Shown here: positions 2,210-4,293 of the stretch, in pieces
Layout: the number at the start of each line of letters is the position of its first letter
Numbering within the stretch: the stretch's first letter is position 1
Virus record (IMG/VR): IMGVR_UViG_2065487004_000030
DNA: 4,293 bases
Source of the DNA: a virus
Lineage: Duplodnaviria > Heunggongvirae > Uroviricota > Caudoviricetes
Direction: 5' to 3' (one strand)
Program-made: the position numbers and the translations under genes
Notes under the pieces: generated by a model
Database searches by the model: none
Told to the model about the DNA's origin: nothing
What the model saw: the letters and a program-made list of their open reading frames with translations, nothing else

Positions 2210-2304
2210 TGAATAAAACCACGAGTTCCTGGTGTGCCTTATTCGGCCTGCTAGTTCGAATTTAATTTACGGTTTTTATGTGGTTTTAGGGATAAACACA
2301 AGGA

Positions 2305-2319
2305 TGGTGTCCCCTGCAG
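2305..2319 (-). repeat. attR core: 15-nt duplicate of the 3' end of tRNA-Arg (argW), ending in ACCA
   Basis: Plus strand TGGTGTCCCCTGCAG is the reverse complement of CTGCAGGGGACACCA (T-stem 3' strand + acceptor 3' strand + discriminator + CCA). There is no upstream tRNA body, so this is a fragment and not a gene. Its position between the chromosomal dsdC and the phage gene torI fits an att core. Confidence 0.75.
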
Positions 2320-2376: not shown

Positions 2377-2398
2377 TATTTTACCCGCTATTTTACCC
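2377..2398. repeat. Tandem direct repeat, 2 x TATTTTACCC (12-bp period), at the 3' end of torI
   Basis: Copies at 2377-2386 and 2389-2398 are identical 10-mers separated by GC. The second copy overlaps the torI stop codon (2393-2395) and last sense codon; the first lies just 3' of the stop. Confidence 0.5.
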
Positions 2399-2593
2399 AT
2401 TGGCGCGGCTTAAGAGCTTATTTTTGAATTCACAATGGTCACGATATAACCATCTTGCTCGCCCGTGGATAACTTTGGCTTTTGGCAGGTCGCCTGACTT
2501 AATCCGGTCATAGATGAAGGTTTTACCAAAGCCAGTATCAGCCATGATGAATTTCAAATCAACCAGTGAATCAGGCTGTAGTTCGTGTTGCAT
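2393..2593 (-). CDS. torI: TorI, prophage excisionase (recombination directionality factor) that also inhibits the TorR response regulator; 66 aa
   Basis: ATG at 2593-2591, stop TAA at 2395-2393, GGAG about 9 nt upstream. Translation MQHELQPDSLVDLKFIMADTGFGKTFIYDRIKSGDLPKAKVIHGRARWLYRDHCEFKNKLLSRANG matches the E. coli TorI sequence as I recall it. Small basic Xis-like protein next to an att core. Confidence 0.9.
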   Translation of the reverse strand: MQHELQPDSLVDLKFIMADTGFGKTFIYDRIKSGDLPKAKVIHGRARWLYRDHCEFKNKLLSRANG

Positions 2594-2628: not shown

Positions 2629-2693
2629 ATCAGGTAATAAAAATACGCTCTATGACGGCGATGGTAGATCAGGATATTTTAAGAAACTGACAG

Positions 2694-2712
2694 GCCTCAT
2701 CGAGTGTGAGGC
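2694..2712 (-). terminator. Weak hairpin (GCCUCA-7 nt loop-UGAGGC) 13 nt downstream of the yfdT stop; possible partial terminator between yfdT and torI
   Basis: Arms 2694-2699 and 2707-2712 are exact reverse complements. On the minus-strand transcript a UUUCUU run begins about 7 nt after the stem, so this is not a canonical intrinsic terminator. Confidence 0.25.
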
Positions 2713-2724
2713 TGTATGGCTCTA

Positions 2725-3030
2725 TTATTTCACCTCTTGTTGTGACATTGTTGAAAAATGGATACCAGCTCGTTGCTGCCAGATGATCCAACCGAGAGTC
2801 ATATCCCATGCCATGTATTCGTTATCGCCGTTTTTTGCTCTCCGACGATCTACTAAGTCACCGAAACGCTTTTCCATGAATAATTCATAGGCTTCGCGTT
2901 CATCTGGCTCTACTTCCAGAGATACGAGTGCGATTTCATAAGCACGGCGCTCAATATCGTCTCGAACCTCTAGGCTGCTGATTCGTTCTTTGATTTCTTT
3001 AATCAGTTCTTTATTGGTAAATGTGGTCAT
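2725..3030 (-). CDS. yfdT: Prophage protein YfdT, 101 aa, function unknown
   Basis: ATG at 3030-3028, stop TAA at 2727-2725. Its start overlaps the yfdS stop (minus strand reads TAATG). Translation MTTFTNKELIKEIKERISSLEVRDDIERRAYEIALVSLEV... is charged and predicted helical. Position and length match K-12 yfdT as I recall it. Confidence 0.8.
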   Translation of the reverse strand: MTTFTNKELIKEIKERISSLEVRDDIERRAYEIALVSLEVEPDEREAYELFMEKRFGDLVDRRRAKNGDNEYMAWDMTLGWIIWQQRAGIHFSTMSQQEVK

Positions 3031-3392
3031 TATGCTCCAGCCTCCGGTGCTTTTGGCATTACTGCCCAGTGAGTGATATTGACGTTTTCAAGGTCCCCAA
3101 CCTGAAATGTCCACTGCCATTCTCCGGTTTCTTTTTGTCCCCAGGTGTACCAGAGAGAACGCCAGCCAATCAGCCAGCCTTCTCCGTTAGCATCAAATAA
3201 CAGAACACTTTCATTTGCTGGTGGCAGTTCAGCTGACACTGGTATTATTTTGTTTTCCAGTGCCGCACATTTAGCTTCAAGCGCGTCGAATTTACGTACC
3301 AGGTACTCAGCATTTGTTTCGTTCACTTTCAGATCTCGCGGTACACATTTCCCGCGAAGAAACCCTTCCATTTCGAAAACATTCATGCGCAT
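3030..3392 (-). CDS. yfdS: Prophage protein YfdS, 120 aa, function unknown
   Basis: ATG at 3392-3390, stop TAA at 3032-3030. The 5' end overlaps the yfdR 3' end by 10 nt (minus strand ATGCGCATGA). Translation MRMNVFEMEGFLRGKCVPRDLKVNETNAEYLVRKFDALEAKCAALENKI... has a Trp-rich C-terminal half (GWLIGWRSLWYTWGQKETGEWQWTF). Confidence 0.8.
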   Translation of the reverse strand: MRMNVFEMEGFLRGKCVPRDLKVNETNAEYLVRKFDALEAKCAALENKIIPVSAELPPANESVLLFDANGEGWLIGWRSLWYTWGQKETGEWQWTFQVGDLENVNITHWAVMPKAPEAGA

Positions 3393-3919
3393 TTGCGTAA
3401 CTCCGATAAATCGTTAAAACGTTCCATAAACATCCCGTAGGCATGACCCGGTGCCAGTGGAATCACGTTGAACATCTCTGTTGCCGGGATGCCTTCCAGT
3501 ACAGGCCAGAAAGAGCCATCATCAAGCCCGAGATCACGGCGTTCGGTTGCCAGCATAATGAGATCGGCATATTTCACTGGCGTGCTCATAACAGGAGGTA
3601 ACCCGTATTTCTCACGGATTACTGCATCTATTTTTTCTTCCATCCGTTTATAGTCAGGAAGAAGGCGTTTCAGTGGTGCGGGGATGTCCTGGCAATACGC
3701 TTCTGTTGCATCATGCATTAATGCTTCAAAAGCAAATTCCTGCGGCACCAGCTGGCTGCAAAGCACCGCATGTTGGGCGACACTGTAGAAGTGAGAAAGA
3801 TGACCGGCAAAGCGGCAGATATTTGAAAGGGAAACCGCGATATCGTTAATCACGATGTCGTCTTTATTTATCTTGTCATAATAAAAATGCTTCCCGGAAA
3901 AAGTTTTAATAAATGACAT
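3383..3919 (-). CDS. yfdR: HD-domain metal-dependent phosphohydrolase YfdR (5'-deoxynucleotidase-like), 178 aa
   Basis: I place the start at ATG 3919-3917, which has GGAGAA 6 nt upstream. The ORF track extends it 9 codons to GTG 3946-3944. Stop TGA at 3385-3383. Translation MSFIKTFSGKHFYYDKINKDDIVINDIAVSLSNICRFAGHLSHFYSVAQHAV...ALMHDATEAY...RRDLGLDDGS shows the H..HD..D metal-binding pattern of HD phosphohydrolases. The 178-aa length matches K-12 YfdR as I recall it. Confidence 0.85.
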   Translation of the reverse strand: MSFIKTFSGKHFYYDKINKDDIVINDIAVSLSNICRFAGHLSHFYSVAQHAVLCSQLVPQEFAFEALMHDATEAYCQDIPAPLKRLLPDYKRMEEKIDAVIREKYGLPPVMSTPVKYADLIMLATERRDLGLDDGSFWPVLEGIPATEMFNVIPLAPGHAYGMFMERFNDLSELRKCA

Positions 3920-4013
3920 TTTGTTCTCCACGTATATGCGCTGCACCGCGCTGAGTTTGGGTAAAAGGAAGCCCTCACCATCCGGTGATTATTGAGTTAA
4001 TTACGTTTCCATA

Positions 4014-4034
4014 AATGCCCCCGCAGGGGCATTT
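4014..4034 (-). terminator. Perfect 9-bp stem / 3-nt loop hairpin (AAATGCCCC-GCA-GGGGCATTT) 13 nt downstream of the yfdQ stop; candidate attenuator or partial terminator between yfdQ and yfdR
   Basis: Arms 4014-4022 and 4026-4034 are exact reverse complements with a GC-rich core. On the minus-strand transcript the stem is followed by AUUUAUGG, only a short U run, so termination would be partial at best. Confidence 0.3.
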
Positions 4035-4046
4035 GCAGTAATGAAA

Positions 4047-4293
4047 TCAGGCGGTGAAAGTACCAATAAAGGTTTCTACTTTGCTGTCTTTGAATTTCTC
4101 AACAAGCAGATCACGAAATTCGTTAGCCATATCTTCCTGCACCGCTTCCAGCTGAATAATGCGCAGAACCAGTACAGGACGATCGCCAGTGATAATGCTG
4201 AGGCGTAATTTAAACGGACGTTCTTTCAGACCTTCAAACGGAACGCATTTAAATTCAAATGCCACTGGCATAATGTCTTTGGTCTTCGCTTCG
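4047..4293 (-). CDS. yfdQ: Prophage protein YfdQ (DUF2303-like), partial: C-terminal ~82 codons present, N-terminus beyond the window end
   Basis: Stop TGA at 4049-4047. The reading frame stays open upstream to 4293 (..[81 protein letters not shown]), so the Met at 4271 in the ORF track is internal. The assignment to yfdQ rests on gene order and the recalled C-terminus. Confidence 0.7.

What the first reader, a model, noticed from the sequence alone, without database searches (positions are those of the whole stretch)
2725..4293. Translationally coupled yfdQ-yfdR-yfdS-yfdT cassette next to the excisionase
Four same-strand genes are packed with overlapping stop/start codons (yfdR/yfdS share ATGCGCATGA; yfdS/yfdT share TAATG), implying co-expression at fixed ratios. 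Only YfdR has a recognisable fold (HD phosphohydrolase). YfdS (Trp-rich C-terminus), YfdT (charged, helical) and YfdQ have no function I can assign from sequence. This position in a lambdoid-type layout is where accessory host-takeover, anti-defence or superinfection-exclusion genes usually sit. I recall a report that over-expressing this operon inhibits chromosomal replication initiation, with YfdR binding DnaA, but I cannot verify it here. If true, the roles of the three partner proteins remain open.
Basis: partly seen in the sequence, partly recalled or inferred. Interest (0 to 1): 0.5.

Follow-up and report, generated by a model that had tools for sequence, protein, structure and literature searches.

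The report
Known K-12 prophage yfdQRST gene cluster
This stretch is the already-studied yfdQ-yfdR-yfdS-yfdT end of the cryptic prophage CPS-53 of E. coli K-12, an early phage operon whose YfdR protein binds the replication initiator DnaA. Only yfdP-yfdQ(-yfdR) and a hairpin after yfdQ are conserved across related prophages, not the four-gene set.

Summary
The window is 100% identical to E. coli K-12 at the dsdC-proximal end of prophage CPS-53/KpLE1. All four genes lie on the minus strand: yfdQ (only its last 81 codons are in the window), yfdR, yfdS, yfdT, then a truncated xis (ypdJ) and torI.

The yfdR/yfdS (ATGCGCATGA) and yfdS/yfdT (TAATG) overlaps are real. yfdQ and yfdR do not overlap. They are separated by 127 nt that hold a GC-rich stem-loop.

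Noguchi & Katayama 2016 showed that multicopy yfdQ + yfdR + (yfdS or yfdT) inhibits oriC initiation and that YfdR binds DnaA domain I.

New here:
- The cluster is ~97% identical to orf32-28 of the functional phage SfV, where it lies between cI and xis-int.
- Across 80 species-level loci, yfdP-yfdQ is invariant (79/80), yfdR frequent (59/80), and yfdS (6/80) and yfdT (4/80) rare. The four genes are therefore not a conserved unit.
- The stem-loop after yfdQ is found in 76/80 loci and shows compensatory changes.
- YfdS and YfdT are mosaic modules of the Ead/Ea22-DUF551 kind.
- YfdQ matches no known fold, but a Xanthomonas-phage homologue has just been solved (PDB 9o7m).

Verdict: already known and of modest interest.

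The parts
4047..4293 (-). yfdQ, 3' part only (last 81 codons plus stop). The full gene is 274 codons and runs off the window. DUF2303/YfdQ family.
   Evidence: RefSeq annotation of the identical K-12 locus. Pfam PF10065 at 77 bits against a cutoff of 26.6. Homologue solved as PDB 9o7m 'YfdQ Protein', E 2e-44.
4013..4034 (-). Conserved stem-loop 12 nt after the yfdQ stop: AAAUGCCCC-UGCG-GGGGCAUUU (9 bp, about -15 kcal/mol). It is terminator-like but has a weak U tract.
   Evidence: Folding. Present at dG <= -12 in 76/80 species loci against 1.7% of random 70-nt windows. Covariation: 93% of cells paired, and 9 of 11 pairs show double changes.
3920..4046 (-). yfdQ-yfdR intergenic spacer of 127 nt. 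It also holds a second small hairpin at about 3975-3988 and the yfdR Shine-Dalgarno GGAG.
3383..3919 (-). yfdR, 178 aa. An HD-domain protein like a 5'-deoxynucleotidase; a DnaA domain I binder according to the literature.
   Evidence: PMC4776307.
3030..3392 (-). yfdS, 120 aa: a variable N-terminus, a predicted helix at 25-46, then a Trp-rich DUF551 module. Its start overlaps the yfdR stop by 10 nt.
2725..3030 (-). yfdT, 101 aa. Its conserved core at about residues 40-90 is a portable module with no Pfam family. Its start overlaps the yfdS stop (TAATG).
2669..2809 (-). ypdJ (name from memory): the first 46 codons of an SfV-type xis, overlapping the 3' end of yfdT in another frame. It is cut off where homology to SfV ends.
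   Evidence: 91% identical to the N-terminus of SfV Xis. The DNA alignment breaks at about 2665. A relative, P0137, continues into an HTH_17 domain.
2393..2593 (-). torI, the excisionase of KpLE1 and inhibitor of the TorR response regulator.
   Evidence: RefSeq annotation; PHROG 66 excisionase.
2304..2319 (.). attR core ATGGTGTCCCCTGCAG, identical to the 3' end of the argW tRNA-Arg gene at the other prophage end.

Best explanation
The region is the distal part of the early-left (PL-type) operon of an SfV-like lambdoid prophage, preserved in the cryptic prophage CPS-53/KpLE1 of E. coli K-12. The minus-strand order is yfdP, yfdQ, stem-loop, yfdR, yfdS, yfdT, xis remnant, torI, attR.

Shown here or in the literature:
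- yfdR, yfdS and yfdT are translationally coupled. yfdQ is not coupled to yfdR.
- YfdR is an HD-domain protein with intact catalytic residues.
- When the cluster is oversupplied, YfdR binds DnaA domain I at the Phe46 site, competes with DiaA and DnaB, and lowers oriC initiation.

Inferred:
- In the ancestral phage this is a host-takeover function, expressed after induction. It would hold back host initiation, and possibly adjust dNMP pools, in favour of phage replication.
- The evolutionary and functional core is yfdP-yfdQ followed by a conserved stem-loop, usually with yfdR next.
- The stem-loop acts as a leaky terminator or as an mRNA-stabilising 3' structure, so that P/Q and R/S/T are expressed at different levels.
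- yfdS and yfdT are swappable mosaic accessory genes of the Ead/Ea22-DUF551 kind. They are not obligate subunits.
For: - Identity with K-12 is 100%.
- The cluster is ~97% identical to SfV/SfIV/PhiR29/Kati over yfdP..ypdJ. In SfV the layout is cI-orf33-orf32(P)-31(Q)-30(R)-29(S)-28(T)-xis-int.
- Junctions and Shine-Dalgarno sites were read directly.
- The HD motif aligns to 2gz4, and PHROG 318 matches.
- Published genetics and biochemistry (PMC4776307): the minimal set is yfdQ + yfdR + (yfdS or yfdT); YfdR alone is pulled down by DnaA domains I-II; binding depends on Phe46; YfdR competes with DiaA and DnaB.
- Co-occurrence across 80 species loci: P 79/80, R 59/80, S 6/80, T 4/80. A DUF551 ORF is present in 5/80.
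- Co-occurrence among close relatives: P and R 76/76, S 50/76, T 29/76.
- Neighbours across species are a cI-like S24 repressor and CII upstream, and xis/int downstream.
- The stem-loop is conserved and covaries. It is also present after the yfdQ homologue of Xanthomonas phage CP2, where a YfdP homologue precedes it and Erf/exonuclease/SSB genes follow.
- YfdS and YfdT are mosaic.
Against: - Every functional result comes from multicopy or overexpression. Deleting yfdQRST has no replication phenotype, and the authors themselves allow that the effect may be an artefact.
- The pull-downs showed no stable contact of YfdQ, YfdS or YfdT with YfdR or DnaA.
- The hairpin's role is inferred only. Its U tract is weak and the terminator scan did not call it.
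- The hairpins were located per sequence before alignment, which inflates the percentage of paired cells.
- 21/80 loci lack a detectable YfdR next to P-Q, so P-Q must have a role independent of YfdR.
- Neither YfdQ nor YfdS matched a known fold, so their mechanism remains open.
Confidence: 0.55

Rival explanations
1. One reading: the four proteins form one machine and are made at fixed ratios through translational coupling. Q, S and T would be obligate partners of YfdR.
For: The genetic requirement for yfdQ, yfdR and one of yfdS/yfdT. The R/S and S/T overlaps. All four genes are kept together at ~97% identity in SfV, SfIV and others, and the stretch covers >=80% in 1857 of 5426 complete E. coli genomes.
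Against: The Q-R spacer carries a conserved hairpin. In extracts containing all four proteins, only YfdR was recovered with DnaA. YfdS and YfdT substitute for each other yet share no sequence similarity. S and T are absent from most loci that carry P-Q-R.
Confidence: 0.12
2. YfdR's real job is nucleotide-pool remodelling as a dNMP phosphatase during phage growth. DnaA binding and initiation inhibition would then be overexpression artefacts.
For: The HD catalytic residues are intact. The PHROG annotation is 'deoxyribonucleoside 5' monophosphate phosphatase'. Deletion has no replication phenotype and the authors raise the artefact caveat.
Against: The paper reports that YfdR's nucleotide affinities are much lower than YfbR's (citing Zimmerman 2008). 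Binding is specific to DnaA domain I and depends on Phe46, and it inhibits an in vitro oriC system. A pure enzyme role does not explain the need for yfdQ.
Confidence: 0.2
3. The requirement for 'yfdS or yfdT' is a cis effect rather than a protein function. Translation or RNA downstream of the overlapping yfdR stop would stabilise the yfdQR message or sustain YfdR synthesis.
For: Two unrelated small proteins are interchangeable. yfdR's stop lies inside the yfdS start region. S and T are evolutionarily dispensable next to P-Q-R.
Against: A plasmid lacking yfdT but with intact yfdS suppresses, while the same construct with a yfdS frameshift does not. The authors read this as a protein requirement. 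YfdR levels in these constructs were not compared in the text I read.
Confidence: 0.13
4. The cluster is an anti-defence or superinfection-exclusion module.
For: The position is in the accessory early-left region. CPS-53 YfdQ affects production of another phage, SW1, in one preprint.
Against: No PADLOC match for any of the five proteins. There is no known anti-defence family hit and no experimental link.
Confidence: 0.05

Closest known systems
Shigella phage SfV orf32-orf28 (also SfIV, Escherichia phages PhiR29, Kati, 2H10, and several Stx2c phages)
   Same: Same five genes in the same order with the same overlaps, ~97% DNA identity. They lie between cI and xis-int.
   Different: In K-12 the SfV-type xis is cut after 46 codons and joined to the KpLE1 torI-attR module. 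The cI/PL region upstream of yfdP is lost.
Lambda P protein, B. subtilis SirA, and E. coli DiaA/Dps (proteins that act on DnaA)
   Same: YfdR binds DnaA and lowers initiation. Like SirA and DiaA, it uses the domain I Phe46 (Phe49 in B. subtilis) surface (PMC4776307).
   Different: There is no sequence relationship. Lambda P targets domain III and DnaB. YfdR is an HD-domain protein and needs yfdQ plus yfdS or yfdT in vivo.
E. coli YfbR and A. tumefaciens Atu1052 (HD-domain 5'-deoxynucleotidases)
   Same: HD fold and metal/catalytic residues.
   Different: YfdR scores below the Pfam YfbR-like gathering threshold (24.3 against 25.9) and far below the NCBIfam equivalog cutoff (19.9 against 122). 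The literature reports much lower nucleotide affinity.
Lambda Ea22 / P22 Ead-type mosaic proteins with DUF551 C-terminal domains
   Same: The C-terminal module of YfdS is fused to Ead/Ea22 (PF13935) N-termini in relatives. The YfdT core is fused to DUF551, Ead_Ea22 or dATP/dGTP pyrophosphohydrolase domains in relatives. The genome position, between the recombination/early genes and xis, is the same (PMC10834534).
   Different: YfdS and YfdT themselves do not hit PF13935. YfdT carries no DUF551.
Intrinsic terminators of lambdoid early operons (tL-type, read through under antitermination) and protective 3' stem-loops
   Same: A GC-rich stem directly after a stop codon, conserved in position. SfV has annotated terminators further upstream in the same operon.
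   Different: The K-12 U tract is only UUUAU and pairs with an upstream A tract. Neither termination nor stabilisation has been measured.

Membership tests
HD-domain 5'-deoxynucleotidase (YfbR-like, PF12917) - YfdR | H...HD...D metal-binding and catalytic residues | tested here: met
   VAQH50, MH69D70ATE73, D78 and YAD align to VAQH, LHDAPE, GD and KAD of Atu1052 (2gz4).
HD-domain 5'-deoxynucleotidase (YfbR-like, PF12917) - YfdR | Score above the curated family thresholds | tested here: not met
   PF12917 scores 24.3 bits against a cutoff of 25.9. NCBIfam PRK03826 scores 19.9 against 122. YfdR is a distant HD relative, not a YfbR orthologue.
HD-domain 5'-deoxynucleotidase (YfbR-like, PF12917) - YfdR | dNMP phosphatase activity | not testable with these tools
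   The literature, as cited in PMC4776307, reports activity with much lower affinity than YfbR.
DUF2303 / YfdQ family (PF10065) | Profile match above the gathering score | tested here: met
   77 bits against 26.6 on the C-terminal fragment in the window. Full-length homologues were found.
DUF551 (PF04448) - YfdS | Profile match above the gathering score | tested here: met
   22.2 bits against a cutoff of 22, which is only just met. Close relatives are annotated as DUF551.
Ead/Ea22-like (PF13935) - YfdS, YfdT | Profile match in the protein itself | tested here: not met
   No hit in YfdS or YfdT. Only relatives that share their C-terminal or core modules carry PF13935.
Translationally coupled gene pair | Stop/start overlap with a Shine-Dalgarno motif inside the upstream ORF | tested here: met
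   This holds for yfdR/yfdS (10-nt overlap, GGAG 8 nt upstream) and yfdS/yfdT (TAATG, GGAG 4 nt upstream). It does NOT hold for yfdQ/yfdR, which have a 127-nt gap.
Intrinsic (rho-independent) terminator - hairpin 4013-4034 | GC-rich stem-loop | tested here: met
   A 9-bp stem with 5 G-C pairs, about -15 kcal/mol.
Intrinsic (rho-independent) terminator - hairpin 4013-4034 | U-rich tract right after the stem | tested here: not met
   The tail is AUGGAAAC after a stem ending in UUU. The terminator scan did not list it. Some orthologous hairpins do have a proper tract, for example Morganella GGCGGCAUUUUUAU.
Conserved RNA structure | Compensatory base changes that preserve pairing | tested here: met
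   9 of 11 pairs show double changes. 71 cells have both sides changed against 15.9 in shuffles, and 93% of cells pair against 44-52% when the register is slid. Caveat: the hairpins were located per sequence before alignment.
Known anti-phage defence systems (PADLOC) | Any profile match | tested here: not met
   No hits for YfdP, Q, R, S or T at E <= 0.1.
DnaA domain I-binding initiation inhibitors (functional class) | Direct binding to DnaA domain I and inhibition of oriC initiation | not testable with these tools
   Reported for YfdR in PMC4776307. This was not re-tested here.

The most novel reading that the evidence does not exclude
yfdP-yfdQ plus its trailing stem-loop would be an ancient, self-contained early-phage module. 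It is found from SfV-like enterobacterial prophages to Xanthomonas phage CP2. YfdQ has a fold with no known relative and builds a large homo-oligomer (36 chains in PDB 9o7m). The module would act on host or phage DNA replication or recombination in a way not yet described. YfdR-DnaA binding would then be only one output of it.
Probability: 0.25. Interest if true: 0.6.

Novelty: already known. Interest (0 to 1): 0.28.

Why it matters
The cluster is one of the few prophage-encoded factors reported to touch the DnaA initiator. More than a third of complete E. coli genomes carry most of this stretch. Knowing that the conserved unit is yfdP-yfdQ-hairpin(-yfdR), rather than yfdQRST, redirects the open question. 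The proteins to study with YfdR are YfdP and YfdQ, and a YfdQ-family structure now exists. The puzzling 'yfdS or yfdT' requirement may be secondary. None of this changes the verdict that the locus itself is known.

Tried and rejected
- Rfam at a permissive threshold found no family in the window. ARAGORN found no tRNA or tmRNA.
- The promoter/terminator scan of the cluster gave promoter-like sites at chance level and did not call the yfdQ hairpin.
- PADLOC gave nothing. NCBIfam gave nothing for P, Q, S, T or TorI.
- PDB sequence searches for YfdS, YfdT, YfdP and a YfdS/DUF551 profile returned only chance hits such as coiled-coil peptides and dehaloperoxidase.
- I tested whether YfdS and YfdT are paralogues, which might explain their redundancy. 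There is no similarity (E 0.38).
- I considered YfdT to be a truncated gene, then rejected that. The 101-aa form is intact in functional SfV and heads a cluster of about 1100 sequences.
- I found no paper for PDB 9o7m in the library.
Full report
**Identity of the window**

The 4293-bp window is 100% identical to E. coli K-12 strains MG1655, C600, J53 and others. In the RefSeq annotation of MG1655 it covers the following:
- dsdX (partial, minus strand)
- dsdC (plus strand)
- the right end of the cryptic prophage CPS-53/KpLE1: torI, yfdT, an unnamed 'phage protein' (yfdS), yfdR and yfdQ, all on the minus strand

Upstream of the window on the same strand lies yfdP. At the far end of the prophage lie intS and the argW tRNA-Arg gene. 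A 16-bp attR core at window 2304-2319 (ATGGTGTCCCCTGCAG) repeats the 3' end of argW.

**Checking the observation**

The ORFs are yfdT 2725-3030, yfdS 3030-3392 and yfdR 3383-3919. yfdQ runs from 4047 to beyond 4293, so only its last 81 codons of 274 are in the window.

yfdS ends TAA and yfdT starts ATG within TAATG. GGAG motifs lie 8 and 4 nt upstream of the two starts, inside the preceding genes. Those two junctions are confirmed.

The fourth junction is not. yfdQ's stop and yfdR's start are 127 nt apart. yfdR has its own strong Shine-Dalgarno (GGAGAACAAAATG). The spacer begins with a perfect 9-bp stem-loop, AAAUGCCCC-UGCG-GGGGCAUUU, at window 4013-4034.

Overlaps as such are not remarkable here. 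In the homologous region of phage SfV most same-strand neighbours overlap: gtrA/gtrB/gtrV, orf28/29/30, orf36/37/38/39 and xis/int.

**What is already known**

Its main findings are:
- A multicopy clone of the cluster suppresses the over-initiation mutant hda-185.
- Oversupply inhibits initiation in wild type, dnaAcos, seqA, DARS-deleted and diaA backgrounds.
- In extracts containing all four proteins, only YfdR is recovered with DnaA. It binds domains I-II, depends on Phe46, and competes moderately with DiaA and DnaB.
- Deleting the four genes has no replication phenotype.
- The authors state that the roles of YfdQ, YfdS and YfdT are unclear and that an overexpression artefact cannot be excluded.

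Wang et al. 2010 (PMC3105296) linked yfdS, yfdK and yfdO deletions to H2O2 sensitivity. Later papers only cite these results.

**The proteins**

YfdR
- It matches PHROG 318 'deoxyribonucleoside 5' monophosphate phosphatase' at E 1.5e-109 and the solved HD protein Atu1052 (2gz4) at E 1.3e-13.
- The H50, H69-D70, E73 and D78 residues align.
- It falls just below Pfam's YfbR-like threshold and far below the NCBIfam YfbR equivalog cutoff. It is a distant HD relative, not a YfbR orthologue.

YfdQ
- It is a DUF2303 protein.
- A sequence search of the PDB did find 9o7m, 'YfdQ Protein': 274 residues, 36 chains, E 2e-44. It is absent from the fold libraries, which stop at April 2026, and I found no paper for it.
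- The 9o7m sequence is 98.8% identical to a protein of Xanthomonas phage MET23-P3 and 93.5% identical to ORF37 of Xanthomonas phage CP2.

YfdS
- It has a variable N-terminus, a predicted helix at 25-46, and a Trp-rich C-terminal module that just passes the DUF551 threshold.
- The model was poor (pLDDT 59.8) and gave no fold match.
- In relatives the same C-terminal module follows Ead/Ea22-like N-termini.

YfdT
- It has no Pfam family.
- Its conserved core is about residues 40-90, with invariant E44, R45, E49, G68, D69, Y72, W75, D76, W81 and W84.
- The core occurs in 335 cluster representatives, at varying positions in proteins of 80-450 residues. In a sample it is combined with DUF551 (11/76), Ead_Ea22 (3/76) or dATP/dGTP pyrophosphohydrolase (2/76) domains.

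YfdS and YfdT share no detectable similarity. Both look like the shuffled accessory proteins typical of the ea/ead region of lambdoid phages (compare PMC10834534).

**Context in working phages**

The stretch from yfdP to the first 46 codons of the ORF that overlaps yfdT's 3' end is ~97% identical to SfV, SfIV, PhiR29, Kati, 2H10 and several Stx2c phages. In SfV the order is cI, orf33, orf32 (P), orf31 (Q), orf30 (R), orf29 (S), orf28 (T), xis, int. These genes therefore make up most of the early-left operon.

Homology to SfV stops at window ~2665, exactly at the stop codon of the 46-codon ORF. That ORF is 91% identical to the N-terminus of SfV Xis. CPS-53 is thus a hybrid: an SfV-type early-left arm joined to the KpLE1 torI-attR module.

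**Co-occurrence**

- Among IMG/VR contigs whose YfdQ is >=98% identical and that have enough downstream sequence (76 loci): YfdP and YfdR are always present, full-length YfdS is in 50, full-length YfdT is in 29, and all four as in K-12 are in 29.
- Across one genome per species (80 loci, YfdQ 41-100% identical, from Escherichia to Proteus, Xenorhabdus, Marinobacter and Photobacterium): YfdP lies immediately upstream in 79, a YfdR homologue lies downstream in 59, YfdS is in 6 and YfdT in 4. An iterated DUF551 profile finds such an ORF in only 5.
- Typical neighbours are a cI-like S24 repressor and a divergent CII upstream. Excisionase, integrase and sometimes an Rv2179c-like exonuclease lie downstream.
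- In Xanthomonas phage CP2 a YfdP homologue (38% identity, E 2e-17) precedes the YfdQ homologue. Erf, exonuclease, endonuclease and SSB genes follow.
- In complete E. coli genomes, 3034 of 5426 have some match to 2725-4293 and 1857 have at least 80% of it.

The conserved unit is yfdP-yfdQ, usually with yfdR. yfdS and yfdT are lineage-specific additions.

**The stem-loop after yfdQ**

- In 76 of the 80 species loci, a perfect-stem hairpin of dG <= -12 kcal/mol lies within 70 nt of the yfdQ stop. The median distance is 10 nt and the median stem is 10.5 bp. Only 1.7% of 1953 random 70-nt windows from the same loci have such a hairpin.
- On a MAFFT alignment of 51 distinct versions, an 11-pair structure has 93% of cells paired, against 78% in column shuffles and 44-52% when the partner is slid by 1-3 columns.
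- 9 of 11 pairs show changes on both sides. 71 cells have double changes against 15.9 expected, and 0 of 500 shuffles reach the observed value.
- The caveat is that I centred each sequence on its best hairpin before aligning, which favours pairing. The flanks are clearly homologous within Enterobacterales, however.
- A GC hairpin also follows the CP2 homologue.
- In K-12 the tail is not U-rich and the terminator scan did not report the site. Some orthologues, such as Morganella, have a proper U tract.

I read it as a leaky terminator or a protective 3' structure that uncouples P/Q expression from R/S/T. That is inference. No transcript data were available.

**Most likely mechanism and rivals**

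The best-supported account is that this is the distal early-left operon of an SfV-like phage. After induction, YfdR occupies the DiaA/DnaB site on DnaA domain I and damps host initiation. YfdP-YfdQ is the conserved partner module of unknown biochemistry. YfdS and YfdT are exchangeable accessories. Confidence is 0.55, limited by the fact that every functional result rests on overexpression.

The rivals are:
- a true four-subunit machine, which the Q-R spacer, the pull-downs and the co-occurrence all argue against
- YfdR acting mainly as a nucleotidase, with DnaA binding an artefact
- the 'yfdS or yfdT' requirement being a cis effect on yfdQR expression
- an anti-defence role, for which there is no evidence (PADLOC negative)

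**Verdict**

The finding describes a real gene cluster in the best-studied bacterial genome, and that cluster has already been characterised.

The additions from this analysis are:
- the yfdP-yfdQ-hairpin(-yfdR) core
- the mosaic nature of YfdS and YfdT
- the xis/torI recombination joint
- the existence of a solved YfdQ-family structure

These are useful leads. They do not change the classification: already known, modest interest.

Noticed in passing
window 4013-4034 (minus strand); orthologous sites in L082-L161 and L163 3894-3918: The GC-rich stem-loop directly after the yfdQ stop is conserved in position across about 76/80 species-level loci, with many compensatory base changes. It is also present in Xanthomonas phage CP2. 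It is terminator-like but has a weak U tract in K-12.
   Followed up: yes
window 2669-2809 (minus strand), joint at about 2660-2670: A 46-codon ORF overlapping yfdT's 3' end is the N-terminus of an SfV-type excisionase (91% identity). Homology to SfV ends at its stop codon, where the KpLE1 torI module begins. CPS-53 is therefore a recombinant of two recombination modules. I believe this ORF is annotated as ypdJ in K-12, but that name is from memory.
   Followed up: yes
window 2304-2319: The 16-bp attR core ATGGTGTCCCCTGCAG is identical to the 3' end of argW at the other prophage end (L001 24519-24534).
   Followed up: yes
window 3975-3988 (minus strand): There is a second small hairpin (UCACC-GGAU-GGUGA) in the yfdQ-yfdR spacer. 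Many orthologous spacers carry a similar GCC-NNNN-GGC hairpin at the same relative place. I did not analyse it for covariation.
   Followed up: partly
L163 (Xanthomonas citri phage CP2) 2639-8241: In CP2 the YfdP and YfdQ homologues (ORF38, ORF37) head a block that continues with a weak DUF1351 match (ORF36; 26.3 bits, below the 27.8 cutoff), Erf, exonuclease, endonuclease and SSB. The PDB entry 9o7m 'YfdQ Protein' (36 chains) comes from a close relative of this phage.
   Followed up: partly
E. coli complete genomes, e.g. H49, H51: The yfdQ-yfdR part is present in over half of complete E. coli genomes, and about 34% carry >=80% of the T-S-R-Q stretch. This contradicts the statement in one paper that CPS-53 is K-12-specific, at least for this module. 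In some strains a PAPS-reductase-family gene follows yfdR in place of yfdS/yfdT.
   Followed up: partly
L001 17313-17340 (outside the window, upstream of yfdP): The only sigma-70-like match upstream of yfdP (TAAACA-16-TATGAT) lies inside the truncated divergent HTH pseudogene. The original cI/PL region seen in SfV is missing in K-12, so it is unclear what drives yfdPQRST in the cryptic prophage.
   Followed up: no
proteins P0010, P0073: A few YfdQ-like proteins carry an additional Pfam domain, PF27127, fused to DUF2303. I did not look up what this domain is.
   Followed up: no
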